Virus record (IMG/VR): IMGVR_UViG_3300031228_000004
Location: 2,320-66,319 of that record
Reading direction: 5' to 3' (one strand)
Length of the DNA: 64,000 bases
Source of the DNA: a virus
The notes below the pieces were generated by a model. That model was not told the origin of the DNA and ran no database searches. It saw nothing but the letters and a program-made list of their open reading frames with translations. Within the stretch, counting starts at the first letter, position 1. Every line of letters begins with the position of its first letter. Shown here piece by piece: positions 8,182-33,671 of the stretch. The translations under genes were made by a program, and so were the position numbers.

Positions 8182-8192
8182 ATGGAGCCACG

Positions 8193-11302: not shown

Positions 11303-11335
11303 CCGGACAGCACACGCCCGAACAGCAGCCACAAT
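11303..11335 (+). promoter_or_regulatory. degenerate candidate late promoter (leaderless terL)
   Basis: CCGGACAGCAC-N16-CACAAT-N7-ATG(11343). Confidence 0.45.
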
Positions 11336-11342
11336 CCCAAGC

Positions 11343-12776
11343 ATGACCACCGAGGACTGGGAGCACTTCTTTCTCACCCCGATCGACTGGATCGAGCGTG
11401 AGCGCGCTGCCGCCCCGGACGCCATCCGCCGCCGAGCGGGATCGACCACAGGCGAACAGCTATCCGCTGCCACAAGCCCACGATGGACCCCGCTACCCCA
11501 CCAGATCCCGCCGGAGGGCGACTTCTACGGCTGGCTCTTGCTGGCCGGCCGAATGGCAGGCAAGACCGACGCCTGCGCCGCATACGTCCACGACCACGTC
11601 CACGGGCCGCCCTGCCTGCCCGGCCCCGTCCCGCACTGGATCGCCATCATCGGACCAACCCTCGGCGACGCCGTCACCTCATGCTTCTCCGGTCCATCCG
11701 GCCTGAGCGTCCACAGCCCAGACGCCAAACTTGCCACCGTCAAAGGCAGCACCATCGTTCGATGGCCTAACGGATCCGAAGCGAAGATCTTCGGCACGAA
11801 CGGCCCGAACGAAGTTGACCGTCTGCGTTCCGGCGGCAACCGATGCCTCGCATGGCTCGAAGAGTTGGCGGCGTGGCGGCATCTCGATGCCGCATGGAAC
11901 CACATGCGGTTCGGCCTCCGCGTCGGCCCACGCCCGCACTGGGTCGCATCCACGACACCGAAGCCCAAGCCCCTCATCAAGCAGCTGCACTCCGGCGCGG
12001 TCGCGAACGTCGAGTTGACACACGCCAGCTACCGCGACAACCCGCACATCTCCGAGGACATCAAAGCCTCCCTGGAAGAACGGTATGCGGGCACGCAGCT
12101 TGGCCGTCAGGAACTGTACGGCGAGCTGATCGAAGAAGACGAGAACGCACTCTGGCAGCACACGATGATCGACGACGCGCGCGTACGCCCCGGCGACGTC
12201 CCGGACCTCGTACGAATCACGGTCGGCGTCGACCCGTCCGGCGGGGCCGGAGAGCAGGGCATCGTCGTCGTCGGGAAGTCTGGGCTTGTGCTGCCAGGCG
12301 ATGGCGGCCGGCCGCAGCACCACGGCTACGTCCTCGACGACCGTTCGTGCCAGTTGTCGCCCGATGGGTGGGGCCGGCGCGCGGTGCAGGCCGCGATCGA
12401 CTGGGAAGCCGACGACATCGTGGTGGAGCGAAATTTCGGAGGGGACATGGCTGTGGCAACACTGCGCGCGGCGGCCGATGCTCTCGGCGTGGACATCCCG
12501 ATCCGAACCGTCACCGCGACGCGGGGCAAGGCGGTGCGAGCGGAGCCGGTGGCGGCACTCACTGCACAGAACCGGTGGCATCACGCTGGCGAGTTCCCGA
12601 AGCTGGAGGACCAGATGGCGACCTGGTATCCGGAGGCTGGTTGGTCACCGGATCGCCTCGACGCGGCCGTTTGGGGAGCGTGGCATCTGAAGCTCGTGGG
12701 TACGGCGGCGCGCGGTACGGGTTCGTTGGGTGGGGAGTTGGCCAGAAAGCAGATCGTCGGCGGGCGCGTACGTTGA
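11343..12776 (+). CDS. terL: terminase large subunit
   Basis: Walker A region AGRMAGKT, Walker B AWLEE, GRQELYGE, nuclease VGVDPS, DDIVVERNFGG, SPDRLDA. Confidence 0.92.
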   Translation: MTTEDWEHFFLTPIDWIERERAAAPDAIRRRAGSTTGEQLSAATSPRWTPLPHQIPPEGDFYGWLLLAGRMAGKTDACAAYVHDHVHGPPCLPGPVPHWIAIIGPTLGDAVTSCFSGPSGLSVHSPDAKLATVKGSTIVRWPNGSEAKIFGTNGPNEVDRLRSGGNRCLAWLEELAAWRHLDAAWNHMRFGLRVGPRPHWVASTTPKPKPLIKQLHSGAVANVELTHASYRDNPHISEDIKASLEERYAGTQLGRQELYGELIEEDENALWQHTMIDDARVRPGDVPDLVRITVGVDPSGGAGEQGIVVVGKSGLVLPGDGGRPQHHGYVLDDRSCQLSPDGWGRRAVQAAIDWEADDIVVERNFGGDMAVATLRAAADALGVDIPIRTVTATRGKAVRAEPVAALTAQNRWHHAGEFPKLEDQMATWYPEAGWSPDRLDAAVWGAWHLKLVGTAARGTGSLGGELARKQIVGGRVR

Positions 12777-12780
12777 CGGC

Positions 12781-13215
12781 ATGGAGACTTGGCTGCTGCT
12801 GCTCGTGATGTCGCTCGCGGTGTACCGGCTGACGCGGTTGATCGTGGCCGACACGTTCCCTCCGGTGCTGTGGTTGCGTGACCGGGTCGCGGGCGGTTGG
12901 CGTGAGCCGACGATGAAGGAGCAGCACCATGAGCTGTTTCCGACCGGCGAGGTTGAGGAGCACACGCTCAAGTCGGTACCGGGCCTGGGGATGTTCCGGC
13001 TCGTCGAGGGTGAGTTGTTCATCTACGCCCGTCGGTGGAAGCGGTCGCCGTTCTGGCTGGCCGAGTTGATCTCGTGCCCGTGGTGCTGCTCGGGCTGGGT
13101 CGCGCTCGCGGTGACGGCCGGGACGTGGGCCACGGTCGGGCTGCCGGTGCCGTTGCTGGTGTGGCCTGCGGTGTGGGCGGCCGGGGCGTTGATCGCGGCA
13201 CAGGAATGGGCGTGA
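12781..13215 (+). CDS. DUF1360-like membrane protein with CPWC (CxxC) motif
   Basis: LAVYRLTRLIVAD...LISCPWCCSGW followed by two hydrophobic helices. Confidence 0.75.
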   Translation: METWLLLLVMSLAVYRLTRLIVADTFPPVLWLRDRVAGGWREPTMKEQHHELFPTGEVEEHTLKSVPGLGMFRLVEGELFIYARRWKRSPFWLAELISCPWCCSGWVALAVTAGTWATVGLPVPLLVWPAVWAAGALIAAQEWA

Positions 13216-13334
13216 CGATTCCTGTGGGATCGTCACGCGTGAGGGCCGGTTCCCCCCGGGCTCTTGTGGTGGGGTGGGGAGCCGTCTACGTTCGGGCGTT
13301 CCGCAGGCGGCTCCCCTGGCTCTCCACTCCCCGC

Positions 13335-13367
13335 CCGGAATGATCTTCACCGGCTAGTGCCTACCGT
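13335..13367 (+). promoter_or_regulatory. candidate late promoter upstream of portal
   Basis: CCGGAATGATC-N16-TACCGT. Confidence 0.65.
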
Positions 13368-13408
13368 CACCCGCAGACCCCATCCACGGGAGCAGCGGGA
13401 GCCGACAA

Positions 13409-15208
13409 ATGGCCTGGTACCACGCCTTTACGCGTCGCGGCCCCATGCCCGCGCCCAAGCCGCACACCCCCGACCAACCCAACGCAATCACCGCAGCCGC
13501 AGCCCCCGTCACCAGCCCCAGAACCGAACTCATCCGCAACACCGACACCTGGCAACAAGAAGCCTGGCAGTTCTACAACGACCTCGGCGAACTCCGATAC
13601 GCCGTCGAGTGGATCAGCGCCATGCTCTCCCGCGTACGCGTCTACGCCGCGAAAATCGAACCCGGCGAAGACGAACCCGTACGCGCAACAGCCGGGGCAG
13701 CCGTCGACCTCATGACCACCCTCGGCGGAGGCGTCGCCGCACAAGCACAACTCATGTCAGCCATGGCCACCCAACTCGCCGTCCCCGGCGAAGGCTATTT
13801 GGTCGGCGAGACCATCAACGGCGTCGAGCAATGGGCGGTCCGCTCCACCGACGAAGTCCGCGCCGCCCGCGGCCACTACGAAGTCATCGACGAGAACTCG
13901 GCGAACGGCGGCGCGCAGTGGCGCCCGCTCGGCTCCAACTCGCTGGTGACTCGCGTGTGGCGCCCGCACAAGCGCTACCACTACATGGCCGACTCCCCAG
14001 CCCGCGCGGCCCGCTCCACGATGCGCGAGCTGGAGCTGGTGAACCGGCACATCGTCAGCCAGTACCTCAGCAGGCTCGCCTCCGCAGGCGTGTGGTTCGT
14101 GCCGTCCGAGGTCACCTTCCCCGTGCGGGAGGAGTTCGCCGACGCCCCGGATCCGTTCATGGCCGAGTGGATCGAGATCGCCGCCGAAGCCATCCGCACG
14201 CCGGGCACCGCGGCGGCAACTGTGCCTATCCCGATCAAGGTTCCGGAAGAACTGATCGGCAAGTTCCAGCACCTCGACTTCACGATGAAGCTCGACGAGA
14301 AGATCCTGGAGAAGCGTGACTCCGCGATCAAGCGTCTCGCCACCCAGCTCAACCTTCCTGCCGAAGTCCTCCTCGGTATGGGCGACGTCAACCACTGGGG
14401 CCAGTGGATGTTGGAAGAGTCCGCGGTCAAGACCAACATCGCGCCCGAAGCCGAACTGATCTGCCAGGCCCTCACCACTGGCTACCTCCAGCCCCGGCTG
14501 AAGGCGTCCGGCGTGGAGGACTTCGCGCAGTGGGTCGTCTGGTACGACCTGTCCGAGCTGACGCTGCGCCCGGACCGCTCCGACGACGCCATCCAGCTGT
14601 ACGACCGGCTGGAGATCAACGGCGCAGCACTCCGCCGCGAAACCGGGTTCAACGAGGACGACCGGCCCGAGGGCGACGAGCTCCACGACCAGGGCCTCAA
14701 AGTCATCATCAAGAGCCTGCCGACCGCAGCAGCCAGCGCCCTCTCACAACTCACCGGCCAAGCCAACGAGGTCACCCAAACCACCGACACGACGCCCCGC
14801 GCTCCCGCCGATCCGGAACCTCCACCCGAGGACCGGACACCGCCCGACACCCGCAGCGAACCACCACCAACGAACGAGGCGGCACGGCAGGCAGCGGCCG
14901 ACGCACGCTCCGAACGCATGGCCCAACAGGCGAAAGCCCTCCACGCAGTCAGGTTCGCTGCTGGCCGTCCGCCGGACCTGCTGCACCCGGCGCTGTGTTC
15001 CTCGCACGCCTACTCCTGCCCGTTCACGCACGCGGCGGCCAAGCTGGCGACGCTCCCTCGGCCGGGCACGTCGGGCGTGTACGAGGCGCGGCTGTCCGCG
15101 TTCGGGCAGCTCACGATCGGCCGGCTGTCCCCGCATCTGGACACCACGGGTTTTCTGACCACCGTCTCCCCTCGGAGTTCCAATGGGTTCGCTCACGGCC
15201 GCCGCTGA
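13409..15208 (+). CDS. portal protein
   Basis: Follows terL; WQQEAWQFYNDLGELRYAVEW, RVWRPH, RLASAG, E.LLGMGDVNHW motifs of actinophage portals. Confidence 0.85.
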   Translation: MAWYHAFTRRGPMPAPKPHTPDQPNAITAAAAPVTSPRTELIRNTDTWQQEAWQFYNDLGELRYAVEWISAMLSRVRVYAAKIEPGEDEPVRATAGAAVDLMTTLGGGVAAQAQLMSAMATQLAVPGEGYLVGETINGVEQWAVRSTDEVRAARGHYEVIDENSANGGAQWRPLGSNSLVTRVWRPHKRYHYMADSPARAARSTMRELELVNRHIVSQYLSRLASAGVWFVPSEVTFPVREEFADAPDPFMAEWIEIAAEAIRTPGTAAATVPIPIKVPEELIGKFQHLDFTMKLDEKILEKRDSAIKRLATQLNLPAEVLLGMGDVNHWGQWMLEESAVKTNIAPEAELICQALTTGYLQPRLKASGVEDFAQWVVWYDLSELTLRPDRSDDAIQLYDRLEINGAALRRETGFNEDDRPEGDELHDQGLKVIIKSLPTAAASALSQLTGQANEVTQTTDTTPRAPADPEPPPEDRTPPDTRSEPPPTNEAARQAAADARSERMAQQAKALHAVRFAAGRPPDLLHPALCSSHAYSCPFTHAAAKLATLPRPGTSGVYEARLSAFGQLTIGRLSPHLDTTGFLTTVSPRSSNGFAHGRR

Positions 15209-18068
15209 CGGCTCGCACACGTCGGGCGCGATGATTGCGCTGATGCCCACGCTCGAGGATGCGGAGCGGCTGGCGATCGAGGGCGGCGAGGCCGCGGATC
15301 AGCTGCACTTGACGCTGTACTTCCTCGGCGACGACGGCGCCGACTTCAGCGAAGAGCAGCGGGCTGCGCTCGTCGAGGCCATCAAGCAGGCGACGCACCT
15401 CGCTGGCGGTCCGATCTCTGCTCGGGTCTTCGGTGCCGCTCACTGGAACGCGGGGTCTGACTCGCCGTCGTGGGTGTGGTCGGTCGGCGATGACCGGGAT
15501 GCTGGCCCTGATGCTCCACGGCTGGAGGACGGGCGGACCGTGGCGGCCGAGGGGCTGCTGCAGAGTGGTCTGTTCGCAGACATGCCCGTGCAGCATTCGC
15601 CGTGGCAGCCGCATATCTGTGCCGCGTACTCCGACGAGTTGGATCTCGTCATCGCGTTGGAGGAGCGCCTCGGACCGGTCACCTTCGACCGCATCCGGGT
15701 GGCGTTCGCCGGGGAGCACACGGACATCCCGCTCGGCGAGAGCATGACCGCGGCGGCTGGTCCGCTGCGCCGTCAGCCCACGGAACTCGAACTCGCGAGC
15801 CGCGCCGACTTCGCGCAGATAGACAAGGCCTGGCACGAGGCCGTCGATGCCACGGTCGAGGCGTGGGCCAGCGCGCAGGAGGCGATGCGCGCCGAGGTCA
15901 CCGCCAGCATCCAAGCCGCCGCCGAGGCCGACGACTTGGACCGCCTCGACGGGCTCACCGTGGACACCGACGACGGCTCGCGTCTCCTGATCGCCCGCAT
16001 GATCGCGTACGCGCGGGAGGCAGGCGAGCAGCAGCAGGCGGAGGCCGAAGCGCAGGGCGTCGACGTCCCGGAGTGGTCCCTCGACGACGAGGCGCTGACG
16101 GCTGCGGCGATCCGTGACCGGCTGCGCCAGGTCGGCCGGACGACAGCCCGCTACCTGGGTGTTGGGCTGGTGCAGTCCGCAGTGCGGCAGGCGATGCGGG
16201 TGTGGGGTTCGGGTTCGGCGGAGCAGGTGGCCGCGCAGGTCGACGAGCACCTCGCGGGCCTGTCCGGTGCGGCAGTTGAGGAGCAGGTGGGTGCGGCGAT
16301 GAGTGCCGCGCAGAACGAGGGCCGCATGGCAGTCCTCGCGGTCGCGCCCCCGGCCGAGTACGTAGCCACGGAGATCCTCGACAGCAAGAACACCTGCAAG
16401 CCCTGCCGCGAGATCGACGGCACCCGCTACACCACCCTTCCCGACGCCCGCACCGCATACCCGTCCGGCGGCTACACGGGCTGCCTCGGCGGCTCCCGAT
16501 GCCGGGGCACGCTCGTCACGGTGTGGCCGCAGGCGGACGAGCAGGCAGCAGCCGCCGGAATGATCTTGGCGGCTTCCGCGGACACAATGCCGCCCAACAT
16601 CCATGAAGGAGGCGGCACCGTGCCGTACCGCATCGAGCAGGGGCACCCAGACTGCGGTGCCGACACCCCATGGGCCGTCATCAAGGAAGGCGACGGCGAA
16701 CTCATGGGCTGCCACGAAACCGAAGCCGCAGCCCTGGAACAGCAGGCCGCGCTGTACGCCGAAGACGACGACAAGCCCGACGACGACATGGACTACACGG
16801 GCGACACCGCCCCGTGGGAAGGCGTCCTCGCCGTCGAAGGCATCGTCACCGGCGACGGCCGCGAGTTCGCCGAAGGCGCCCTGCAGTGGGCAGACCTCCC
16901 CATCCCATTGAGGTGGAACAAGGAAGACTCCCACGGCGGGGAACCCCACACCGTCGCCGTCAACGTCGGCCGCATCGACAAGGTGTGGCGCGACGACAAC
17001 AAGATCATGGGCGCCGGAGTTCTCAACCTCGCCGAGGCGGACGGGCAGCGCGTCCACGACATGATCAAAGGCGAGTTCATCCGCGGCGTCAGCATCGACG
17101 CCGACTCCATCGCGGACGCCGACGTCGAGTACGTCTTCCCCGAAGACGTCAACGAGGGCATGGACGACGAGGGCGACCTCTTCGAGATGCTCTTCGCCCA
17201 GCCCGAGAAAGTCATCTTCCACGGCGGACGCATCCGCGCCGCCACGCTGGTGGACATCCCGGCGTTCGCCGAGGCGTACGTCGCGCTCCTCGACGAGGCC
17301 GGCGCGATCGTGGCCGGCGGGCAGCCCGTCGGTGAGGCCGCCATCCAGACCGTGGCCGGTCAGGAGCCGGAGCCGGTCCGTGCGCTGCGCGCGGTTGCTG
17401 CGTCGGGTGGGGTGTGGAAGCCGCCTGCCGCCTGGTTCTCGGATCCGAAGCTGTCGCTGCCCACGCCGATCACGGTCACGGACGACGGCCGGATCTACGG
17501 GCACGCCGCGCAGTGGGGTGTGTGCCACATCGGGTACGACGGGGTATGCGTCCAGGCGCCACACGAGGACGAGCACCCGTACTACCGCACCGGGGAGATC
17601 GTGTGCGCGGACGGTGGCCGTGTGGCGGTCGGTCAGATCACGGTCGGTACTGGCCATGCCGACACGCATCTGGGAGCGAACCCGGCGGCGGAGCACTACG
17701 ACAACACGGGCGCGGCCGTCGCTGATGTGAGTGTGGGCAACGACCAGCATGGCATCTGGGTGGCGGGCGCGGTGCGGCCGGGCGCGGACCCGCTGCGTGT
17801 GTATGAGCTCCAGGCCGCGGGCCAGGTGTCGGGTGACTGGCGGCGGATCGGCGGCCAGTTGCGGCTTGTCGGTCTCCTCGCGGTGAACGTGCCTGGTTTC
17901 CCGGTGCCGAAGATGCGGGCGCGGGTGGCGGGTGGTCAGGTTCAGGCGCTGGTGGCGGCGGGTCGTCCGACGGTGGCGTTCGGTCTGTCGCCGGAGGAGA
18001 CGGAGCGTCATGCGGTGCGGATTGTGATGCGGATGCTGTCGCGTCGTGTCCACCCTGGAAGGGGGTGA
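15183..18068 (+). CDS. fusion: 2H phosphoesterase (LigT-like) + MuF-like minor head domain + capsid maturation protease
   Basis: LHLTLYFLG and WQPHICAAY (2H); ATEILD..TCKPC...GCLGGSRCRG (MuF); EGIVTGDGR...GVSID...ATLVDIPAF (protease); located between portal and capsid. Confidence 0.8.
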   Translation: MGSLTAAADGSHTSGAMIALMPTLEDAERLAIEGGEAADQLHLTLYFLGDDGADFSEEQRAALVEAIKQATHLAGGPISARVFGAAHWNAGSDSPSWVWSVGDDRDAGPDAPRLEDGRTVAAEGLLQSGLFADMPVQHSPWQPHICAAYSDELDLVIALEERLGPVTFDRIRVAFAGEHTDIPLGESMTAAAGPLRRQPTELELASRADFAQIDKAWHEAVDATVEAWASAQEAMRAEVTASIQAAAEADDLDRLDGLTVDTDDGSRLLIARMIAYAREAGEQQQAEAEAQGVDVPEWSLDDEALTAAAIRDRLRQVGRTTARYLGVGLVQSAVRQAMRVWGSGSAEQVAAQVDEHLAGLSGAAVEEQVGAAMSAAQNEGRMAVLAVAPPAEYVATEILDSKNTCKPCREIDGTRYTTLPDARTAYPSGGYTGCLGGSRCRGTLVTVWPQADEQAAAAGMILAASADTMPPNIHEGGGTVPYRIEQGHPDCGADTPWAVIKEGDGELMGCHETEAAALEQQAALYAEDDDKPDDDMDYTGDTAPWEGVLAVEGIVTGDGREFAEGALQWADLPIPLRWNKEDSHGGEPHTVAVNVGRIDKVWRDDNKIMGAGVLNLAEADGQRVHDMIKGEFIRGVSIDADSIADADVEYVFPEDVNEGMDDEGDLFEMLFAQPEKVIFHGGRIRAATLVDIPAFAEAYVALLDEAGAIVAGGQPVGEAAIQTVAGQEPEPVRALRAVAASGGVWKPPAAWFSDPKLSLPTPITVTDDGRIYGHAAQWGVCHIGYDGVCVQAPHEDEHPYYRTGEIVCADGGRVAVGQITVGTGHADTHLGANPAAEHYDNTGAAVADVSVGNDQHGIWVAGAVRPGADPLRVYELQAAGQVSGDWRRIGGQLRLVGLLAVNVPGFPVPKMRARVAGGQVQALVAAGRPTVAFGLSPEETERHAVRIVMRMLSRRVHPGRG
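16555..16622 (+). promoter_or_regulatory. internal late promoter + RBS + in-frame GTG inside the fusion gene
   Basis: CCGGAATGATC-N17-CACAAT, then AAGGAGG, 7 nt, GTG(16620) starting VPYRIEQGHPDC. Confidence 0.6.
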
Positions 18069-18151
18069 ATGGATCGTGTGCAGTTGCAATAAGAGGCGTC
18101 GTCCGGCGCCTCCTCCGCCGCCCCCGCCAAGCTCCTGACCTTTACGTTTAG

Positions 18152-18187
18152 CGCACCGGCAAAGGTAATTGACTCTTTGCCGGTGCG
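18152..18187. promoter_or_regulatory. 13-bp inverted repeat upstream of capsid gene (terminator or operator)
   Basis: CGCACCGGCAAAG/CTTTGCCGGTGCG; the loop contains TTGACT. Confidence 0.5.
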
Positions 18188-18262
18188 TGTGCTATGCGCT
18201 AACCTCCGGCGAAAGGGCGCCAACACGACGGGCGCACAACCCTCTTCGCAACGGAGGACAAC

Positions 18263-20029
18263 GTGGCAGCCGAAGAGCTCTTTAGCGCCCCGTCCGATCT
18301 CACCCTCGCGTCCGACGCCGACCTCACCGAACTCGAAGCCCGAGGCACCGCCGAGTTCGACCGCGTCCACGCCCTCGACGACGTCGACGACCAGGCGCTC
18401 CAGTACGCGCTGCGCGTCACGGAAGATCTCGACCGCATTCGCGCCGAGCTCCGCGTCCGCGAGGTCCGCGCCGAGCAGCAGGCCGCCATGCAGCAGTCCC
18501 GCGTCGCCGACCAGCTCTCCCAGCTCCAGGCCCGCGTCCACGGGGGCACCGCAGCAGTAGCCGCCGAGCAGCCCGCTCCGCAGGTCGACGTCGAGGCGAT
18601 CGCTGCCGCTGCCGCACGCGGCGTCACGGCCGGCATGGCCACCCTCATGATGGACCGCCGCGGCGGCTCCGTCCGCCCCGAGGAAGTCGCCCGCCGCGCC
18701 ACTGCCTCCCTGGCAGAGACCGCGCAGCATGCGCCGAAGCCCAACGTCCCCGAACAGCGCCTCGCCGTCACCGCGAGCGTGGACATCCCCGGCGTCGCCC
18801 GCGGCGAAGGACTCACCAGCCTGGCCGCGCTCGCAGACGTGACGTCCCGCAAGGCCAAGAGCATGCCCGTCACCCAGGGCGCCCCCAGCGAGCAGCTCGT
18901 TGCATCCGTCCGCAACGAGTTCGAGCACGGGCACACCGTGGACAACCGCACCAAGCGCGGCGAGATGAAGGACCTCATCTCGTTCCTGACTAGCCCCGAC
19001 AAGCAGGCCGCGCTCGTCGCCGGTGGAGGTTGGTGCGCCCCCAGCCAGACCAGGTACGACTTCTTCAACATCGCCTGCGAATCCGGCATGATCGACCTGC
19101 CGACCTTCGGCGTCACCCGCGGCGGCATCGAGTTCCCCGTCTCCCCGAGCCTCGCCGACGCCCTGGCCGGAGGCACCGCCTTCGCCGGGTTCGCGGCCAC
19201 CTTCTCCAACGAGAGCACGCCGTTCCTGTGGAGCGAGGCCGACGACATCGCGGCCGCCACCGGTTCACCGACCAAGCCGTGCATCCGGGTGCCCTGCCCG
19301 GACTTCGACGAGGAACGGCTGGAGGCGTACGGATACTGCCTGACCGCGGGCAACCTCACCGACGAGGCCTACCCGGAGGCGACGCAGAACACGCTCCAGT
19401 TGCTGATGTCGGCGCACGCGCGCATCGTGAACGCCCGCCTGATCGCGCTCATGCTGGCCCGCTCCACCGCTGCCATCACCATCACCGGAGGCGCCATCAC
19501 CGACGCGGCCGCACCACGGATCTACAACGCGGTGGGGCTGGCCGCGACGGACTACCGGGCCCGCTACGGCATGTGCATCGACGACGTCCTCGAAGTGGTG
19601 CTCCCGTACTGGGTGCGCGACGTCATCCAGGCCGACCTCGCGTGGAAGGCGGGCGTCGAGCTGGGTGACATTCCGCTGTCGGAGGTCAACCGGTATTTCA
19701 CCGCCCGCAACGTCGCCGTGCAGTGGGTCAACGACTGGCAGGTCCGTGGCGCTGGCCAGTTCGGCAACGCGACACCGATGACGGCGTGGTCGACGACCGC
19801 GGACTTCCTCATCTACGCCGCAGGCACCTTCATCCACGGGCAGGGCATGAGCCTCGACCTCGGTGTCATCCGCGACTCCGTCCTGAACGAAACCAACGAC
19901 CACACCGCCGCGTGGAGCGAGGAAGCCCACCTCATCGCCCGCGTCGGCCACGAGTCCCGCCGGTACACGGTCGGCTTCAACGTCAACGGTGCCACGTCGG
20001 CGCTGCTGTCCGGCACCGTCCGCGTCTGA
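18263..20029 (+). CDS. major capsid protein with N-terminal coiled-coil scaffold domain
   Basis: 588 aa; helical E/A/Q-rich N-terminus, then LVAGGGWCAPSQTRYD, TRGGIEF motifs (recalled as cluster-B-like capsids). Confidence 0.85.
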   Translation: MAAEELFSAPSDLTLASDADLTELEARGTAEFDRVHALDDVDDQALQYALRVTEDLDRIRAELRVREVRAEQQAAMQQSRVADQLSQLQARVHGGTAAVAAEQPAPQVDVEAIAAAAARGVTAGMATLMMDRRGGSVRPEEVARRATASLAETAQHAPKPNVPEQRLAVTASVDIPGVARGEGLTSLAALADVTSRKAKSMPVTQGAPSEQLVASVRNEFEHGHTVDNRTKRGEMKDLISFLTSPDKQAALVAGGGWCAPSQTRYDFFNIACESGMIDLPTFGVTRGGIEFPVSPSLADALAGGTAFAGFAATFSNESTPFLWSEADDIAAATGSPTKPCIRVPCPDFDEERLEAYGYCLTAGNLTDEAYPEATQNTLQLLMSAHARIVNARLIALMLARSTAAITITGGAITDAAAPRIYNAVGLAATDYRARYGMCIDDVLEVVLPYWVRDVIQADLAWKAGVELGDIPLSEVNRYFTARNVAVQWVNDWQVRGAGQFGNATPMTAWSTTADFLIYAAGTFIHGQGMSLDLGVIRDSVLNETNDHTAAWSEEAHLIARVGHESRRYTVGFNVNGATSALLSGTVRV

Positions 20030-20070
20030 CGCTGACCGTGACACAAGCTGAGGAAGGGTGGTGAGCGCTG

Positions 20071-20955
20071 ATGGCCGCGCGCCAACTGATCGACCTGCCA
20101 GCAGTGTTCACCACCCTCCCGTATGGGCTGTGGGACACCATCCAGACCCCCAGCCCCGACGGCGTGCACTGGCAGCAGGGCGTCACCTGGCCCGAGCGCT
20201 GCCCGACCGGCGACACGACGTACGACGAGTGCCTCTCGGTCACCGGCACCGGCGCGCCCCCCGAGCCCGAGCCCGAGCCCAAGACCGCCAACGTCGAGCA
20301 GACCAACCGCGGCGCGCTCCCGTTCACGGTGTACGCCCGCTTCGATTGCTCACCGGTCGGGCTCGGCGACGCACAGTCCTCCGCGCAGGACGCGCTCGCC
20401 CGCGTCGAACAGCAGCAGGTGGAGACCGCGTTCTGGACCGGCGCCGCCGGAGGGCAACCCGTCGTCTTCCCGCACCTCGCCGCCGACACTGAGGTGCTGG
20501 ACGGCGACATCGTTCTCCAGACCGTCGCCTCGCCGGTCGTCACCGGAGCGGACGCCGCGTACGCGCTCGGCGCGCTGGAGCAGGAACTCGCCGGGTGCTA
20601 CGCCGGGCAGGGCCTCATCCACGTGCCACGCACTGCGCTGCCGACGCTGGCCGCCTGGAACCTCGTCGAGGTCCGCGACGGGGTGCTGTACACGCTCGCC
20701 GGGAACCGGATCGTGGCCGGAGGCGGCTACACCGGCAGCGGCCCCGACGGGTCAGCGCCGGCCGCGGGTACGACGTGGATCTACGCCACTGGTGCCGCGT
20801 GGGGTTACCGGTCCGACGTGTACGTCTCCCAGGTCCGCGACTCCCTGAACCGCTCCGCCAACACTCTGCAGATGCTGGCGGAGCGGAACTATCTGATCGG
20901 TTTCGAGTGCTGCCATCTGGCCGCGCACATCGTCCTGGGCGTGCCCACCGAGTAG
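20071..20955 (+). CDS. head-associated structural protein (minor capsid/decoration)
   Basis: Immediately after capsid; HWQQGVTW, PFTVYARFDCSP, LAERNYLIGFECC. Confidence 0.65.
   Translation: MAARQLIDLPAVFTTLPYGLWDTIQTPSPDGVHWQQGVTWPERCPTGDTTYDECLSVTGTGAPPEPEPEPKTANVEQTNRGALPFTVYARFDCSPVGLGDAQSSAQDALARVEQQQVETAFWTGAAGGQPVVFPHLAADTEVLDGDIVLQTVASPVVTGADAAYALGALEQELAGCYAGQGLIHVPRTALPTLAAWNLVEVRDGVLYTLAGNRIVAGGGYTGSGPDGSAPAAGTTWIYATGAAWGYRSDVYVSQVRDSLNRSANTLQMLAERNYLIGFECCHLAAHIVLGVPTE
20260..20280 (+). repeat. (CCCGAG)x3.5 microsatellite encoding PEPEPEP
   Basis: Direct reading of the sequence. Confidence 0.7.
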
Positions 20956-20967
20956 GAGCAGAACACC

Positions 20968-21645
20968 ATGGCCACAGTCTCCACGTGCGCGACTCCTATC
21001 AAGGGCACGCACCTTCGGATCATCGAACTCGACGCGTGTGGTGTCCCGGTGACGGGTGAGGGCGGCATGGTCGTCGTCACCAAGGGTTTCGTGTCGGTCG
21101 AGATGGAGCCCGACTACGAGGACGGCGAAGAGTTCTTCGAGCGGACCGCGGACGGCACGCCGTGCGTGAACCAGAAAGACGACCCAACGCTGAAGAGGTT
21201 CGCGCTGACCATTCAGATGTGCGAGATCAACGTCTCTGGAATGTCGTTCGTCATGAGCGCCCGCGAGCTCATCTCCGGGTCACCCACCACGGGTACTGGG
21301 TTCGCCGTGGCTGAGGGAAACCCGACCAACCGGTTCTCGCTGGAGGTGTGGCAGGAGGTCGCCGGGTCCGGGGCGTGTGACGCGTCGGGGGCCCAGCGGT
21401 ACATCTACAACGCGTTCCCCAACGTGGGCGCCACCCAGATCGGCTCCTATCCGATCGAGAACGGCCGCTCTGCCCTGGAGATCACCTCAGAGACGCGCGG
21501 TGCTGGCGCCACGTGGGACACCCTCGTTGGCGCTGACTGGCTCCCCGCAGGCGAGAGCGTGTTCACCGACGAGCATTGGATCTGGAACGTGACTACGACG
21601 GCGCCGCCGACTGCGGCGTGCGACCCGACGACGCTCGCCGCATAA
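20968..21645 (+). CDS. major tail (tube) protein
   Basis: IKGTHLRIIELDACG...DGEEFFERTADG.PCVN...FSLEVW motifs; position in the tail module. Confidence 0.8.
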   Translation: MATVSTCATPIKGTHLRIIELDACGVPVTGEGGMVVVTKGFVSVEMEPDYEDGEEFFERTADGTPCVNQKDDPTLKRFALTIQMCEINVSGMSFVMSARELISGSPTTGTGFAVAEGNPTNRFSLEVWQEVAGSGACDASGAQRYIYNAFPNVGATQIGSYPIENGRSALEITSETRGAGATWDTLVGADWLPAGESVFTDEHWIWNVTTTAPPTAACDPTTLAA

Positions 21646-21670
21646 CCTGACCCGCCCCGAAGGGGGAGCC

Positions 21671-23170
21671 ATGGCGCTGGCCCAGTACAGCGAGCTCTAC
21701 TGGACACCGTCAGGCACGGTTGCGGCGAACGTTCCGGCGAGGGTGTTCAACTACTCAACGAACACCTTCGCCGTCCTGTGGGCAGACGCCGGCGGCACGG
21801 TGCCGCTGGCGAACCCGCTCAACACCACCACGGCGGGGCGTTTGACGTTCTACGCCGAGGAGGGCCGCTACTGGGTTCACATCGACTCCGAATCGTTCGA
21901 GATCGCAGTGGGCGCGGCAGCGCAGGCGGCAACGCAGGAAGACATCACCACAGCTGTCGCCGCCCACAGCGCTGCGGTTGATCCGCACGGCGACCGGGCG
22001 TACGCAGACGTCGTAGCAGCCGACGAGGCCGCAGCATGGCGCCGCCGCGACATGCCAGACCCCGCCCTCGCCGACACCCTCTACACCGGCACCACACCCA
22101 CCACCAGCACCACCCAGTCAGCCACACCCACCATCAGCGGAGCCATCACCTACGCCCCGGCCACCGGACCGTTCCTGTACCTGGGCGCAGACGACTTCGA
22201 GTTCGGCGCCACCTTTCCGGACACCAACTACTACCTGCCGACGTCCCGGTACCCGAACACCTACAGCAGCGGGCAGTCGAACTGGACTGTTGAATTCTGG
22301 ACCGACGCGGCCGAGTTCGAGGTCGGCTTCAAATACATCAGCGCAGCCACGATGTACCGGCTGTCCATCGACGGACGCCCCGTCACCGACCTGATGCAGT
22401 CCTCCGGCGGAATCACCGCCGGCTCATCCCACATGCTGCTCGTAGACCTCGGCAGCACAGGCCCGCGCCGCATTCGCATCGACTTCACCACCATGCCGTT
22501 CCGCGGCGTATACCTGCCGCCGTCCGCGACGATGTGGCAGCCCACCGGCATCGGCGGGCGCCTGGCCGTCCTCGGAGACTCCCTCACCGACGGCAGCTCC
22601 CAGAACACGGGCTTCGGCCAGGGCACATGGCTCCAGCGCACCGGCCGGCTGCTGGGCTGCACCGACGTGTGGGACCAGGCCCGCGGCGGCACCGGCTACA
22701 TCACCTCCGGGTCGTTCGCGACATTCGGGGACCGGGTGGCTTCCGACATCGTGGCCTATGCCCCGGACCGGGTCATCGTGTGGGGCGGGTTCAACGATTC
22801 CGGCGGGTCGCAGGCTGCGATCGGTACGGCGGCCGATGCTGTGTACGCGGCCATCGACGCAGGACTGCCCGACACGCAGGTGTACGTGATCGGCTGCTGG
22901 TCGCCGTCCGGATCCCCGGGGTCCGGGATCACGAACACCGACGCGACGCTGCGTACCGCCGCCGCGTCTGCCGGGCTGCCGTTCATCTCCCCCGTCACTG
23001 GCAGCATCTACGACGCGAGCGGCACCCTGGTGGCCACGCACGGCCCATGGATCACCGCACAGAACGCCAGCACCTACATCGGCGGGGACAACACCCACCC
23101 GACCGACGCCGGGCACATCTACCTGTCGCGCCGGATCTACGGGGCGCTCCTCGCGCTCATGCCGGGCTGA
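21671..23170 (+). CDS. virion-associated SGNH/GDSL hydrolase
   Basis: N-terminal attachment-like domain, DPHGDRAYAD motif, Thr-rich linker; SGNH blocks GDSLT, GGTGY, GGFND, DNTHP. Confidence 0.8.
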   Translation: MALAQYSELYWTPSGTVAANVPARVFNYSTNTFAVLWADAGGTVPLANPLNTTTAGRLTFYAEEGRYWVHIDSESFEIAVGAAAQAATQEDITTAVAAHSAAVDPHGDRAYADVVAADEAAAWRRRDMPDPALADTLYTGTTPTTSTTQSATPTISGAITYAPATGPFLYLGADDFEFGATFPDTNYYLPTSRYPNTYSSGQSNWTVEFWTDAAEFEVGFKYISAATMYRLSIDGRPVTDLMQSSGGITAGSSHMLLVDLGSTGPRRIRIDFTTMPFRGVYLPPSATMWQPTGIGGRLAVLGDSLTDGSSQNTGFGQGTWLQRTGRLLGCTDVWDQARGGTGYITSGSFATFGDRVASDIVAYAPDRVIVWGGFNDSGGSQAAIGTAADAVYAAIDAGLPDTQVYVIGCWSPSGSPGSGITNTDATLRTAAASAGLPFISPVTGSIYDASGTLVATHGPWITAQNASTYIGGDNTHPTDAGHIYLSRRIYGALLALMPG

Positions 23171-23180
23171 GGAGGCTTCT

Positions 23181-24014
23181 ATGCCGGTCATCAACCCCAT
23201 CTTGAGCACGCCCTCTGGGACAGGCGGGATCAGCGGGCCGTGCGCGGACTGGCCCGTCACCTGGACCTGCGACCTCGACACACTGAATCCAGCCGTCACC
23301 GGCGTCGCCGTCAGCATGGCCACCGAGACGTTGTGGGCTTTGACTGGCATGCGGTTCGGGACGTGCCAGGTCACCCTGCGGCCGTGCCGTCGCGAGTGCC
23401 AGACCGGATCGTTCTACGACGACTTCGGGCCGCCGTGGGCCGCGTCGTACTATCCGCAGCCTGCGCTGATTGGCGGCCTGTGGTTCAACCTGACGTGCGG
23501 GTCGTGTGCGGGGGACTGCTCGTGTACGCCGGTGTCGGAGGTGCGGCTTCCGGCTCCGGTGCACACGATCGTTGAGGTGAAGATCGACGGCACACCTTTG
23601 GTGACGGGCGCGTACCGGGTGGACAACAACCGGCTGCTGGTGCGGACGGATGGCGGTCAGTGGCCGCGCTGCAATGACCTGACCTTGGACGACACTGAGG
23701 TGGGGACATGGTCGGTGACGGCCACGTACGGCGAGAGCCTGCCTGAGGGCGCCTCTTTGGCTGTGGGGCAGTTGGCGTGTGAGATCGCGAAGGCTGCTGC
23801 GGGTGGAGACTGCAAGCTCCCTGCCGGGCTTCAGCAACTCGTCAGGCAGGGCGTGACCATCAGCTATCCCGACGTCGGCGAGCTGTTCCGGCAGGGCCGC
23901 ACCGGTCTGTACCTCGTCGACATGTTCGTGACGACATGGAACCCGTACGGGCTCAGACAGCGGTCGCGGGTGTACTCCGTTGACCGGCCGACCGTTCGAC
24001 GGGCGGGCACCTGA
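23181..24014 (+). CDS. head-to-tail adaptor/connector (Cys-rich)
   Basis: ATETLWALTG.RFG.C..TLRPC, LACEIAKA, RQGVT, TGLYLVD motifs; 12 Cys. Confidence 0.7.
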   Translation: MPVINPILSTPSGTGGISGPCADWPVTWTCDLDTLNPAVTGVAVSMATETLWALTGMRFGTCQVTLRPCRRECQTGSFYDDFGPPWAASYYPQPALIGGLWFNLTCGSCAGDCSCTPVSEVRLPAPVHTIVEVKIDGTPLVTGAYRVDNNRLLVRTDGGQWPRCNDLTLDDTEVGTWSVTATYGESLPEGASLAVGQLACEIAKAAAGGDCKLPAGLQQLVRQGVTISYPDVGELFRQGRTGLYLVDMFVTTWNPYGLRQRSRVYSVDRPTVRRAGT

Positions 24015-24520
24015 TGGCGATGATCTCGGGCCCGTTGAAGTGGTACACGGTCGCGTCCACTTTGGAGCAGGCGGTGTACGCCGAGCTCACCACCAAGCCC
24101 GACCGCCACTCCGTGGTGCCGGGTGCGATCGCGTGGGATGAGTGCGACTGCGGACTGTTGGCCGTGTCCGTCGGCACCATCTACCTCACCGAGACGTTCC
24201 CCGAACCGCTCTCCCGCCGTGTCGGCAACGCCTGCGACGCGCCGTGGGAAGCGGCTGAGGTCGTCATCCAAGTCGTCCGCTGCGCGCCGAACCCGGATGA
24301 TCCGATGACGGCGCCGACCACGGCCGAGCTGGACGCGTCCGCGCAGGAGGTTCTCCGTGACGCGTACGAGATGCTGAAGGCGGTGTCGGTGAAGCTGTGC
24401 CAGATGAACCAGGACCGCGAGATCTCCGACTTCGTCCTGAGGCCGCTCACGCCGCAGGGCCCGTCGGGTGGCTGCGTCGGCAACGAACTCCGCGCCATCG
24501 TCTCGCTGCCGAGGAACTGA
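24014..24520 (+). CDS. tail terminator/completion protein
   Basis: Synteny; AWDECDCG, QVVRCAP, GPSGGCVG. Confidence 0.6.
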   Translation: MAMISGPLKWYTVASTLEQAVYAELTTKPDRHSVVPGAIAWDECDCGLLAVSVGTIYLTETFPEPLSRRVGNACDAPWEAAEVVIQVVRCAPNPDDPMTAPTTAELDASAQEVLRDAYEMLKAVSVKLCQMNQDREISDFVLRPLTPQGPSGGCVGNELRAIVSLPRN

Positions 24521-24522
24521 CC

Positions 24523-24921
24523 ATGTTCACCGTCAGTTCAAGCTTCAACCTCGACCGGGGCCGGATCGAACGCATGCTGCGCCTGCCGGGCGGCATGGTG
24601 CACCGCAACATGGAACGCCGCGTACGCCGCGTGGAAGCCGAAGCCCGCAGGCGCGCACCCGGCAGCATGGGCCAGGGCAGCAACATCACCTCGCAGATCC
24701 AACGCGGACCGGGCGGCGACTTCCGAGGAGTCATCAACTCCCGGCACCCCGCGACCCTTTACGTCCTGTACGGCACGCGCCCGCACCGCATCGAACCGCG
24801 CAGGCGAGGGGGCGTCCTCCGGTTCACGGTGGGCGGCCGGGTCGTGTACGCGAAGTACGCCATGCATCCGGGCACCAAACCTAATAACTGGCTGCGTGAC
24901 GCGTTGCGCGCGGCTCTCTAA
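24523..24921 (+). CDS. neck/tail completion protein (HK97 gp10-like)
   Basis: Basic; ATLYVLYGTRPHRI...VVYAKYAMHPGTKPNNWLRDAL. Confidence 0.7.
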   Translation: MFTVSSSFNLDRGRIERMLRLPGGMVHRNMERRVRRVEAEARRRAPGSMGQGSNITSQIQRGPGGDFRGVINSRHPATLYVLYGTRPHRIEPRRRGGVLRFTVGGRVVYAKYAMHPGTKPNNWLRDALRAAL

Positions 24922-24925
24922 CACT

Positions 24926-24958
24926 CCGGAATGATCATGGCGGGGTGGAACCTACCTT
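24926..24958 (+). promoter_or_regulatory. candidate late promoter (leaderless tail chaperone)
   Basis: CCGGAATGATC-N16-TACCTT-N6-ATG(24965). Confidence 0.65.
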
Positions 24959-24964
24959 CCGACC

Positions 24965-25417: not shown

Positions 25418-25644
25418 ACCTGATCTACGCCGAAATGGTCCAGCGCCTCAACGTCCGCGAAGGCCAAACCCCGGAAGCCGCCCGGAAGCGGTTCGACGGG
25501 CAACTCGGCGTGCCCGCATGGGAAACCCCAGGCCACGAAGCACACGAGCCCGAACCCGGTACCCCGTGGTCTCCCTGGTGGTGGAGCGGCGCTGAAGACG
25601 CCTCCCAAGACTTCCTCAAGTCCATGGGGGTGAACCTCACATGA
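25294..25644 (+). CDS. tail assembly chaperone gpT portion, reached by -1 frameshift
   Basis: The -1 frame from CGC CCT A (25292-98) reads PYGAVLALVAWASQPGIWHELDGRC...MGVNLT up to the tape measure start, with no own RBS or start. Confidence 0.65.
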   Translation, partial: PYGAVLALVAWASQPGIWHELDGRCAAAGVDPGDLPADRFLNLIYAEMVQRLNVREGQTPEAARKRFDGQLGVPAWETPGHEAHEPEPGTPWSPWWWSGAEDASQDFLKSMGVNLT

Positions 25645-28874: not shown

Positions 28875-28875
28875 C

Positions 28876-31638: not shown

Positions 31639-31644
31639 CCACTC

Positions 31645-33670: not shown

Positions 33671-33671
33671 C

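What the first reader, a model, noticed from the sequence alone, without database searches (positions are those of the whole stretch)
12781..24520. Cys-rich virion shell plus a membrane CxxC protein in the head module: possible phage-encoded disulfide cross-linking pathway
Seen (Cys counted by eye): adaptor 12 in 277 aa, tail terminator 6/168, tail tube 6/225, protein 20071 6/294, and capsid 6, all in its C-terminal shell domain. The 1077-aa tape measure, which is ejected, has none. Between terL and portal sits a DUF1360-like membrane protein with CPWCC at the start of a TM helix. Known: DsbB and VKOR use a membrane-helix CxxC to pass electrons to quinones, and poxviruses encode their own disulfide relay for virion proteins. 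Inference: this protein may oxidise structural proteins into a disulfide-stapled particle. Alternatively, the cysteines bind metal or oxidise spontaneously after lysis.
Basis: partly seen in the sequence, partly recalled or inferred. Interest (0 to 1): 0.7.

Follow-up and report, generated by a model that had tools for sequence, protein, structure and literature searches.

The report
Disulfide-stapled actinophage virion; unproven DUF1360 oxidase
This is the head-and-tail gene block of a Streptomyces-type phage whose shell proteins carry invariant cysteines matching the virion-wide disulfide network solved in 2026 in the related phage Jabs. The small CxxC membrane protein next to the portal gene is a real, conserved puzzle, but nothing here shows that it makes those bonds.

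Summary
Observation confirmed. Every cysteine count is exact and the gene calls hold: DUF1360 protein, portal, two capsid proteins, tube, adaptor, and a lambda gpU-fold tail terminator. Abundance is modest, since only the adaptor and terminator are clearly enriched. The stronger signals are these: 36 of 36 shell cysteines are conserved in up to 80 related loci (41% for other residues), cysteines appear and vanish in lock-step pairs, and the tape measure has none.

The phage belongs to the two-capsid-protein actinophage supergroup. A July 2026 preprint on its member Jabs shows about 1,700 disulfides linking capsid, connector and tail. Via PG1 numbering, the window keeps the Jabs inter-capsomer and inter-ring cysteines. 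A disulfide-stapled particle is therefore well supported, but it is a new member of a known kind.

The oxidase idea is not supported. DUF1360, with an invariant C-x-x-C predicted at the cytoplasmic membrane face, sits at the portal gene in all 11 sampled relatives, whatever their cysteine load. Pumpernickel keeps it with a cysteine-free hexon protein, and Milano has disulfides without it. It has a single cysteine pair, no VKOR/DsbB match and no cofactor domain. Earlier first-reader notes of this scan, unchecked, raised similar DUF1360 ideas on other phage DNA.

The parts
11340..12776 (+). Large terminase. The true start is uncertain; the ORF opens at 11052.
   Evidence: Pfam Terminase_6N and Terminase_6C. 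5 Cys in 478 aa, whose gains and losses among relatives are unpaired.
12781..13215 (+). DUF1360-family membrane protein, 144 aa. It has three predicted membrane helices, C99-P-W-C102 at the N-terminus of helix 2, and an inserted beta-sheet of about 45 aa (roughly residues 45-88) that most family members lack.
   Evidence: PF07098 at 27.4 bits and phrog_781 at 3.8e-18. AF2 model with pLDDT 83. CxxC kept in 120/120 close homologues, 36/36 loci and 146/146 aligned sequences (145 intact 50%-cluster representatives plus the window's protein). K+R counts place loop 1 and the CxxC on the cytoplasmic side.
13409..15208 (+). Portal protein.
   Evidence: phrog_776 at 5.6e-128. The conserved N-terminus MAWYHAFT fixes the start. 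C530 and C537 are invariant in 42/42 sequences.
15183..18068 (+). Fusion protein: 2',5'-RNA-ligase-like domain, MuF-like domain and capsid maturation protease.
   Evidence: phrog_2659, phrog_595, phrog_18402 and phrog_859. The homologue in Xkcd426 and PG1 is annotated as a capsid maturation protease and MuF-like fusion.
18263..20029 (+). Major capsid protein of the hexons (MCPh), with a Cys-free N-terminal scaffold-like region (residues 1-240). Its Cys are at 258, 272, 340, 345, 359 and 438.
   Evidence: phrog_777 at 6.8e-121. tblastn finds 877 phage records annotated as major capsid hexamer protein. C258 and C345 align with PG1 C263 and C339, which correspond to Jabs C271 and C347, the hexon-hexon disulfide. 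C272 and C438 are lost together.
20071..20955 (+). Major capsid protein of the pentons (MCPp).
   Evidence: phrog_779. A profile of the clade hits PG1 gp13 and Hashim76 gp18, both annotated as major capsid pentamer protein (E 9e-7 and 4e-10). C93 is universal and aligns with PG1 C99, equivalent to Jabs MCPp C97, the penton-hexon disulfide.
20968..21645 (+). Major tail (tube) protein.
   Evidence: phrog_792. C24, C66 and C85 align with PG1 C20, C61 and C80, equivalent to Jabs C19, C60 and C79. C137 probably corresponds to Jabs C131, but that region contains an indel.
21671..23170 (+). GDSL esterase-domain protein in a variable slot between the tube and adaptor genes. It is not part of the Cys network (2 Cys in 499 aa).
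   Evidence: Pfam Lipase_GDSL_2 at 6e-15. Apart from the window's own copy, only 1 of the related loci carries a full-length copy (the 80%-coverage family had n=2 including the window).
23181..24014 (+). Head-to-tail adaptor with 12 Cys, including C106-x2-C109-x3-C113-x-C115.
   Evidence: phrog_783 at 1.2e-71. All 12 Cys are kept in at least 52 of 56 loci. C73 and C164 are lost together in the same 4 loci, at least 3 events. C69, C106, C109, C115 and C211 are shared with PG1, YungMoney and Quhwah.
24014..24520 (+). Tail terminator.
   Evidence: AF2 model with pLDDT 90. Best Foldseek matches are lambda gpU (E 8e-6, prob 1.0) and the terminators of T5, Mu and P74-26. It holds the same position after the adaptor as Jabs ORF79.
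25641..28874 (+). Tape measure protein with no Cys.
   Evidence: 0 Cys in 1077 aa, p=3e-6 at background frequency. Relatives have 0-1 Cys in 955-1840 aa.

Best explanation
The region is the structural module of a high-GC siphophage, probably of Streptomyces. It belongs to the large actinophage supergroup that builds its capsid from two HK97-type proteins, one for hexons and one for pentons.

Its shell proteins (hexon and penton proteins, tube, adaptor, terminator) carry cysteines placed at subunit interfaces. In the finished particle these form a virion-wide disulfide network like the one solved in phage Jabs. The predicted bonds are: hexon C258-C345 between hexons; penton C93 to hexon C258; tube C66-C85 and C24-C137 between rings; and lineage-specific pairs such as hexon C272-C438 and adaptor C73-C164. 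The ejected tape measure stays Cys-free.

Most of these bonds join different subunits, so they can form only after assembly. They most likely close by uncatalysed oxidation of juxtaposed thiols at or after lysis.

The DUF1360 protein is a separate, ancient component of this head module. It has three membrane helices and an invariant CxxC at the cytoplasmic face, and its gene is tied to the portal gene. Its role does not track the cysteine load of the shell. My best guess, which is inference only, is a membrane-bound helper of portal or procapsid assembly that uses the CxxC for a metal site or for its own redox-sensitive pairing.

Shown: the sequences, the conservation, the covariation and the homologies. 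Inferred: the bonds themselves, their timing, and any role of DUF1360.
For: - The Cys counts are exact.
- 36/36 shell Cys are conserved, against 41% of other residues.
- Pairs change in lock-step. Hexon C272/C438 are absent in the same 4 loci. Two further hexon pairs, one penton pair and one terminator pair are each present in identical sets of loci. Adaptor C73/C164 are lost together at least 3 times on the capsid tree. Variable Cys of terL and portal are unpaired.
- The pairs also hold across distant phages. The Jabs pair C281-C563 is present as a pair in PG1, Hashim76 and Quhwah, and both members are absent in the window, Xkcd426 and YungMoney. YungMoney keeps the tube pair equivalent to C19-C131 and lacks both members of C60-C79.
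- The Jabs cryo-EM shows two capsid proteins, about 1,700 disulfides, and the bonds listed above. PG1 Cys numbers differ from Jabs by a constant 8 in the hexon protein and 1 in the tube, 4 of 4 in each.
- DUF1360 lies directly before the portal gene in 10 of 11 isolated phages sampled, one small ORF away in Quhwah, and before a portal-sized gene on two metagenomic contigs (followed by a MuF-family gene on one).
- The five shell proteins hold 65 Cys in TurkishDelight and 6 in Pumpernickel, with DUF1360 and its CxxC intact in both.
- Milano lacks DUF1360.
Against: - No bond was observed for this phage. It is uncertain for tube C137 and for the terminator.
- The adaptor cluster CxxCxxxCxC could bind a metal. 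Its counterpart is disordered in the Jabs map.
- Spontaneous oxidation is assumed, not shown. The Jabs authors leave open whether an oxidoreductase acts.
- DUF1360 has just the features a thiol-disulfide enzyme would need: an invariant C-P-aromatic-C at a helix N-terminus and a predicted cytoplasmic face. Its presence coincides with the whole Cys-bearing supergroup.
- The counter-examples are few: one lineage (Pumpernickel), which still has 2 Cys in the tube and 3 in the adaptor, and one unrelated Gram-negative phage (Milano).
- The proposed portal-assembly role rests on gene adjacency alone.
Confidence: 0.6

Rival explanations
1. One reading: the DUF1360 protein is a phage-encoded membrane thiol oxidase. 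Its cytoplasm-facing CxxC takes electrons from virion-protein thiols, or from a diffusible thiol such as mycothiol, and passes them to a membrane acceptor such as menaquinone. The disulfide network would then be formed or primed before lysis.
For: - The CxxC is invariant in 146/146 aligned sequences (145 intact representatives plus the window's protein), and the other conserved residues (R16, T18, R19, D24, R33, W92, W101) cluster near it.
- The consensus C-P-W-C resembles the glutaredoxin CPYC and DsbA CPHC active sites (established knowledge). It sits at the N-terminus of a helix.
- K+R counts put it on the cytoplasmic side, where virions assemble.
- It is present in every sampled member of the supergroup, nearly all of which carry interface Cys.
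- No thioredoxin-like candidate was found among nine other Cys-bearing ORFs tested, seven of them with a CxxC.
- The Jabs authors call catalysis an open question.
Against: - Presence does not track Cys load. Pumpernickel keeps it with 0 Cys in the hexon homologue, 1 in the penton homologue and 0 in the terminator-like protein.
- Milano has no DUF1360.
- There is only one conserved Cys pair, no shuttle pair, no fused domain in 10 longer members, and no Pfam hit other than DUF1360.
- Most bonds join subunits inside assembled capsids and tails, where a membrane-embedded site cannot reach (inference).
- The co-occurrence within the supergroup amounts to a single phylogenetic event.
Confidence: 0.15
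2. The conserved cysteines mainly bind metal ions such as zinc, rather than forming disulfides.
For: The adaptor has C106-x2-C109-x3-C113-x-C115. The MuF part has C405-x2-C408...C434-x5-C440. The portal has H-x3-C530-x2-H-x3-C537-x3-H. All of these are invariant. The adaptor loop is disordered in Jabs.
Against: Variable Cys change in pairs, not in threes or fours. In Jabs the homologous positions of capsid, tube and terminator are seen as disulfides in cryo-EM density. C113 of the adaptor cluster is absent in PG1 and YungMoney.
Confidence: 0.07
3. The DUF1360 protein has nothing to do with virion building. It would be a membrane factor for lysis timing, superinfection exclusion or ion or metal transport that merely travels with the late operon.
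For: It is a small three-helix membrane protein with no virion role known. Phage records annotate it only as a membrane or hypothetical protein. The family also occurs in Bacillus subtilis (control). An earlier unchecked note of this scan saw a CPWC DUF1360-like gene in a lysogeny island.
Against: Exclusion and lysis genes usually vary fast and move about. This one keeps its sequence motifs and its place at the portal gene from Streptomyces to Mycobacterium, Gordonia and Microbacterium phages, often with overlapping stop and start codons.
Confidence: 0.18

Closest known systems
Mycobacterium abscessus phage Jabs virion (cryo-EM; Cambillau et al., bioRxiv 10.64898/2026.07.24.740622, July 2026)
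   Same: Gene set and order match: portal, hexon protein of about 590 aa, penton protein, tube, adaptor, terminator, and no stopper. It uses two capsid proteins. Cys equivalent to Jabs MCPh C271 and C347, MCPp C97 and MTP C19, C60, C79 (and probably C131) are present and invariant in the window's clade.
   Different: The window lacks both members of the Jabs intra-hexon pair C281-C563 (it has F268 and G562) and has its own pair C272-C438. Its adaptor has 12 Cys against 5 in the close Jabs relative PG1. Capsid identity to cluster B phages is only about 32%. No structure exists for this lineage. The Jabs sequence could not be fetched.
Pfam DUF1360 (PF07098) / phrog_781, e.g. PG1 gp7, Hashim76 gp12, Xkcd426 gp10
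   Same: It scores above the Pfam cut-off and shares the motifs YRxTRL...D in helix 1 and W-L-x-E-L-x-[ST]-C-P-W-C-x-S-x-W in helix 2. It sits at the portal gene in the same way.
   Different: The window's clade has an extra beta-sheet insert of about 45 aa between helices 1 and 2, which most members (95-120 aa) lack. No member has a known function.
DsbB and VKOR (bacterial membrane thiol:quinone oxidoreductases)
   Same: Both are small membrane proteins with a CxxC at the end of a membrane helix.
   Different: DsbB and VKOR have four helices and a second, shuttle Cys pair, and they face the outside of the cell. DUF1360 has three predicted helices and one pair, and is predicted to face the cytoplasm. 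There is no Pfam hit, and neither family appeared among the structure matches shown.
Poxvirus E10R-A2.5L-G4L, and the Erv-type oxidases of other large DNA viruses and baculoviruses
   Same: The concept is shared: a virus supplies its own pathway to put disulfides into virion proteins in the cytoplasm (established knowledge).
   Different: Those enzymes are FAD-binding Erv/ALR four-helix proteins with thioredoxin-like partners. No such domain was found in the DUF1360 protein, in the other eight head- and tail-module proteins plus terL, or in the ten further ORFs scanned. No phage example is known to me.
Agrobacterium phage Milano (a disulfide network spanning capsid, neck and tail, as cited in the Jabs preprint)
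   Same: It is a tailed phage whose virion is covalently stapled by many disulfides.
   Different: It is an unrelated contractile-tailed phage of a Gram-negative host, and its whole genome has no DUF1360 match.

Membership tests
DUF1360 (PF07098) | Profile match above Pfam's gathering score | tested here: met
   27.4 bits against a cut-off of 21, residues 91-136. phrog_781 at 3.8e-18 over residues 1-138.
DUF1360 (PF07098) | Invariant C-x-x-C followed by S/G-x-W at the start of the second hydrophobic helix, and R-x-T-R...D in the first | tested here: met
   C99 and C102 are kept in 146/146 aligned sequences (145 intact representatives plus the window's protein). R16, T18, R19, D24 and R33 are each above 80%.
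DsbB (PF02600) | Sequence-profile match | tested here: not met
   The Pfam scan at E<=0.01 returned DUF1360 only.
DsbB / VKOR | A second conserved Cys pair that shuttles electrons from the substrate or partner | tested here: not met
   C99 and C102 are the only conserved Cys in the family alignment.
DsbB / VKOR | Four-helix membrane bundle fold | tested here: inconclusive
   The AF2 model has three long helices plus a beta-sheet insert. Neither family was among the Foldseek or VIA-align rows. The best Z was 7.3, for generic helical matches.
DsbB / VKOR | Quinone binding and thiol oxidase activity | not testable with these tools
   This needs biochemistry.
VKOR (PF07884) | Sequence-profile match | tested here: not met
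   No hit in the Pfam scan.
Erv/ALR sulfhydryl oxidase (poxvirus E10R type) | FAD-binding Erv1/Alr domain | tested here: not met
   No such Pfam hit in the DUF1360 protein, in the other eight head- and tail-module proteins plus terL, or in ten further ORFs scanned (nine of them Cys-bearing). Not every ORF of the window was scanned.
Two-capsid-protein, disulfide-linked actinophage virion (Jabs type) | Separate hexon and penton capsid genes, adjacent to each other | tested here: met
   phrog_777 and phrog_779. A profile links 20071-20955 to the annotated pentamer proteins of PG1 and Hashim76.
Two-capsid-protein, disulfide-linked actinophage virion (Jabs type) | Cys at the positions that form inter-capsomer and inter-ring bonds in Jabs | tested here: met
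   Window hexon C258 and C345, penton C93, and tube C24, C66 and C85 align with the PG1 Cys whose numbers differ from Jabs by constant offsets. Tube C137 is probable only.
Two-capsid-protein, disulfide-linked actinophage virion (Jabs type) | Disulfide bonds actually present in the particle | not testable with these tools
   Indirect support comes from lock-step paired gain and loss.
Tail terminator (lambda gpU fold) | gpU-like fold, encoded directly after the adaptor | tested here: met
   AF2 pLDDT 90. Foldseek matches lambda gpU at E 8e-6 (prob 1.0), then the T5, Mu and P74-26 terminators.

The most novel reading that the evidence does not exclude
DUF1360 would be a new class of minimal membrane thiol oxidoreductase with a cytoplasm-facing CxxC. 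In this reading, phages of the two-capsid-protein actinophage supergroup (877 phage records hold a hexon-protein match; DUF1360 was found in 11 of 11 sampled) encode it at the portal gene to drive or prime disulfide formation in their virions, for instance by oxidising a diffusible thiol late in infection. It would be the first phage counterpart of the poxvirus and other large-DNA-virus disulfide pathways, and would answer the question the Jabs structure paper leaves open.
Probability: 0.13. Interest if true: 0.85.

Novelty: new member of a known kind. Interest (0 to 1): 0.45.

Why it matters
Virion-wide disulfide stapling was shown only in 2026, for one mycobacteriophage. This window shows that the same cysteine framework, with extra lineage-specific pairs, extends to a large uncultured Streptomyces-type clade. 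Cys load ranges from 6 to 65 across the supergroup's five shell proteins, which gives a natural series for asking what the bonds are for.

It also singles out DUF1360. This is a family of unknown function with an invariant CxxC, and its gene is fixed at the portal gene in all 11 sampled phages of the supergroup. It is the obvious first gene to knock out when testing whether phage disulfides are catalysed. The tests can be done in laboratory strains. Either answer would be useful: a new oxidase, or a new portal-linked membrane factor.

Tried and rejected
- Megablast of 11000-25000 against the phage collection found no match. tblastn with the window's DUF1360 protein found one phage only. Profiles were needed to see the family in relatives.
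- Sequence search of the PDB with the capsid, adaptor and tube proteins found nothing. The Jabs models are not yet deposited, and its genome PQ001584 is not in the phage collection.
- Foldseek and VIA-align searches with the DUF1360 model gave only weak, generic helical matches. No VKOR or DsbB rows appeared.
- Complex prediction of portal plus DUF1360 gave no verdict (score 0.00). This is no evidence either way.
- Pfam scans of ten longer DUF1360 relatives found no fused domains. NCBIfam gave no names.
- Three look-ups of distant DUF1360 representatives returned contigs too short to show context.
- AF2 coordinates are not exposed, so Cys-Cys distances could not be measured.
- One literature search was mis-specified and useless.
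- I recall that B. subtilis YjcA, a sigma-E sporulation gene, is the DUF1360 member that rang in the control. I could not verify that identity, so it remains only a lead.
- A simple link between the DUF1360 insert and Cys richness was rejected. Short forms occur in both the richest phage (TurkishDelight) and the poorest (Pumpernickel).

Full report
**What the window is.** The window lies in a 67.7-kb IMG/VR virus record with 65-72% GC. It has no near-identical DNA among isolated phages. The closest homologues of its DUF1360 protein (80-89% identity) come from soil metagenome contigs of about 66-78 kb and from Streptomyces chromosomes. It is therefore a Streptomyces-type phage or prophage.

**Genes on the + strand.**
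- terL, about 11340-12776
- a 144-aa DUF1360 protein, 12781-13215
- portal, 13409-15208
- a fusion of RNA-ligase-like, MuF and protease domains, 15183-18068
- hexon capsid protein, 18263-20029
- penton capsid protein, 20071-20955
- tube, 20968-21645
- a GDSL esterase-domain protein, 21671-23170
- adaptor, 23181-24014
- terminator, 24014-24520
- tape measure, 25641-28874

These calls rest. The penton assignment rests on a profile of the clade that hits the annotated 'major capsid pentamer' proteins of PG1 and Hashim76. The terminator assignment rests on an AF2 model with pLDDT 90, whose best structural matches are lambda gpU and other terminators.

**The observation.** Abundance alone is a modest signal. 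Against 1.18% Cys in 65 other crudely called ORFs, only the adaptor (4.3%, p=1e-4) and the terminator (3.6%, p=0.015) stand out. The capsid protein is at 1.0%. A tape measure of 1077 residues without a single Cys is unlikely by chance (p=3e-6).

The strong signals come from relatives. In 80 IMG/VR loci with 59-93% capsid identity, 36 of 36 shell cysteines are kept in at least 90% of sequences. Only 41% of other residues reach that level (Fisher p=2e-14).

**Paired behaviour.**
- Hexon C272 and C438 are missing from exactly the same four loci.
- Two further hexon pairs, one penton pair and one terminator pair are each present in identical sets of loci.
- Adaptor C73 and C164 are lost together in four loci with different replacement residues, which needs at least three events on the capsid tree.
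- One hexon pair changes three times in lock-step.
- Variable Cys in terL and portal show no partners.

The same rule holds across distant phages. Tube C7/C218 and adaptor C30/C62, C73/C164 and C113/C200 are present together in the window and Quhwah, and absent together in PG1 and YungMoney. This is the signature of disulfide partners, not of three- or four-ligand metal sites.

**Link to a solved virion.** The capsid protein has relatives in 877 isolated actinophages, annotated as 'major capsid hexamer protein'. A July 2026 preprint (bioRxiv 10.64898/2026.07.24.740622) reports the cryo-EM structure of one of them, the M. abscessus phage Jabs.

Jabs has a T=9 capsid built from a 594-residue hexon protein and a separate penton protein. 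Its connector consists of portal, adaptor and terminator only. [quoted passage not shown] The bonds reported are:
- MCPh C281-C563 within hexons
- MCPh C271-C347 between hexons
- MCPp C97 to MCPh C271
- MTP C60-C79 and C131-C19 between tube rings
- terminator C93 to MTP C79

However, the Cys of the cluster B phage PG1 differ from the Jabs numbers by constant offsets: hexon 263/273/339/555, offset 8, and tube 20/61/80/132, offset 1. PG1 can therefore serve as a proxy.

In alignment, window hexon C258 and C345, penton C93, and tube C24, C66 and C85 fall on those columns, and they are universal or nearly so among six phages. Tube C137 probably corresponds to Jabs C131, but it lies in an indel region.

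The intra-hexon pair of Jabs is present as a pair in PG1, Hashim76 and Quhwah. Both members are absent from the window, Xkcd426 and YungMoney. YungMoney keeps the tube pair equivalent to C19-C131 and lacks both members of C60-C79.

I therefore regard a disulfide-stapled virion as well supported for this phage, at about 85%. It is no longer a new kind of thing.

**The DUF1360 protein.** It scores above the Pfam cut-off. In 120 close homologues, 36 loci and all 145 intact representatives of 50%-identity clusters (146 aligned sequences with the window's own protein), C99 and C102 are invariant. The third Cys is not conserved.

The family consensus is YRxTRLxxxD in helix 1 and W-L-x-E-L-x-[ST]-C-P-W-C-x-S-x-W at the start of helix 2. 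The AF2 model (pLDDT 83) gives helices at 3-22, 100-119 and 127-139. C99 sits at the N-cap of the second helix. The model also shows a beta-sheet insert of about 45 aa that most relatives lack.

Across the family, lysine plus arginine average 7.6 in the segment between helices 1 and 2, against 0.2 in the N-tail and 0.1 in the short loop between helices 2 and 3. By the positive-inside rule this places the CxxC at the cytoplasmic face. That is an inference, at about 75-80%.

C-P-aromatic-C at a helix N-terminus recalls glutaredoxin and DsbA (textbook knowledge). On the other hand:
- Pfam finds no DsbB, VKOR or Erv domain.
- Structure searches show no such rows.
- Longer relatives carry no fused domain.
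- There is no second Cys pair.

A profile of the family finds a DUF1360 gene with CxxC in 11 of 11 isolated phages sampled across the supergroup: Xkcd426, Hashim76, PG1, YungMoney, Quhwah, TurkishDelight, Pumpernickel, Dexdert, Fosterous, CandC and Nicole72. It also finds one on two metagenomic contigs.

The gene lies directly upstream of the portal gene in 10 of the 11 phages. In Quhwah it is one small ORF away. Stop and start codons often overlap.

Over the same set, the five shell proteins hold the following numbers of Cys:

| Phage | Cys in five shell proteins |
|---|---|
| TurkishDelight | 65 |
| Nicole72 | 40 |
| window | 36 |
| Quhwah | 36 |
| CandC | 30 |
| PG1 | 23 |
| Dexdert | 17 |
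| Fosterous | 15 |
| YungMoney | 14 |
| Pumpernickel | 6 |

The Pumpernickel hexon homologue (E 1e-39 to the window's) has no Cys at all. Conversely, Agrobacterium phage Milano, cited in the Jabs preprint for a virion-wide disulfide network, has no PF07098 match anywhere in its genome.

So DUF1360 is a constant of the head module, not a correlate of Cys richness. Within the supergroup its presence is confounded with descent. The informative cases are few, and Pumpernickel still has a few Cys in its tube and adaptor. This weakens the oxidase model but does not kill it.

**Mechanistic weighing.** Most Jabs bonds join different subunits at interfaces of assembled capsomers and tube rings. They can therefore form only after assembly, in places a membrane-embedded site cannot reach. 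The ordinary explanation is oxidation of pre-positioned thiols on exposure to air at lysis, as the Jabs authors suggest while leaving catalysis open.

An indirect role for DUF1360, oxidising a diffusible thiol, would need a partner or an acceptor for which I found no sign. Pfam scans of nine other Cys-bearing ORFs in the window, seven of them with a CxxC, gave only HNH, zinc-ribbon and HTH hits. That scan was not exhaustive.

The tight, ancient coupling to the portal gene suggests to me a membrane-bound helper of portal or procapsid assembly. This rests on adjacency only. A complex prediction of portal with DUF1360 gave no verdict.

**Verdict.** This is a new member of a known kind, and it carries a conserved, testable orphan membrane CxxC protein. 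Earlier first-reader notes of this scan raised DUF1360-like CxxC proteins on other phage DNA. They are unchecked and were not used as support.

Noticed in passing
window 21671-23170: A GDSL esterase-domain protein lies between the tube and adaptor genes. This slot looks like a swap site. Apart from the window's own copy, only 1 of the related loci has a full-length copy (the 80%-coverage family had n=2 including the window), and other relatives carry a glycosyltransferase (TurkishDelight), a queuine tRNA-ribosyltransferase (PG1) or a phosphoesterase (CandC) there.
   Followed up: partly
window 13409-15208, portal residues 526-541: The portal C-terminal tail has an invariant motif H-P-x-L-C530-S-x-H-A-Y-S-C537-P-F-T-H (both Cys kept in 42/42). 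It could be a metal site or a disulfide inside the head. The corresponding part of the Jabs portal is disordered.
   Followed up: no
window 15183-18068: One 961-aa protein fuses a 2',5'-RNA-ligase-like domain (residues 1-187), a MuF-like part with C405-x2-C408...C434-x5-C440, and the capsid protease. All ten of its Cys are nearly invariant among relatives.
   Followed up: partly
window 31684-32061: A 125-aa ORF with 6 Cys (4.8%, one CxxC) lies just after the 923-aa minor tail protein and has no Pfam hit. It may belong to a disulfide-linked adhesion device, as in Jabs.
   Followed up: no
window 57757-59343: A 528-aa ORF with 19 Cys (3.6%) and three CxxC motifs lies in the non-structural half and has no Pfam hit.
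   Followed up: no
window 13216-13408: There is a 193-nt gap between the DUF1360 and portal genes, with no promoter-like or terminator-like site in the simple scan. In several relatives these two genes overlap or abut instead.
   Followed up: partly
window 8160-11191: Upstream of terL, by eye: a Rossmann-type NAD epimerase/dehydratase-like protein (8160-9008, GGAGFFG) and a family-2 glycosyltransferase-like protein (10547-11191, DSDDE). This suggests sugar-modifying genes placed ahead of the packaging genes.
   Followed up: no
L090 (Microbacterium phage Pumpernickel, NC_073468.1) 20001-39798: This 186-kb phage shares the same head module: DUF1360, portal, and hexon, penton, tube and adaptor homologues. 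Its shell proteins are almost Cys-free, which makes it a natural contrast to the Cys-rich relatives.
   Followed up: partly
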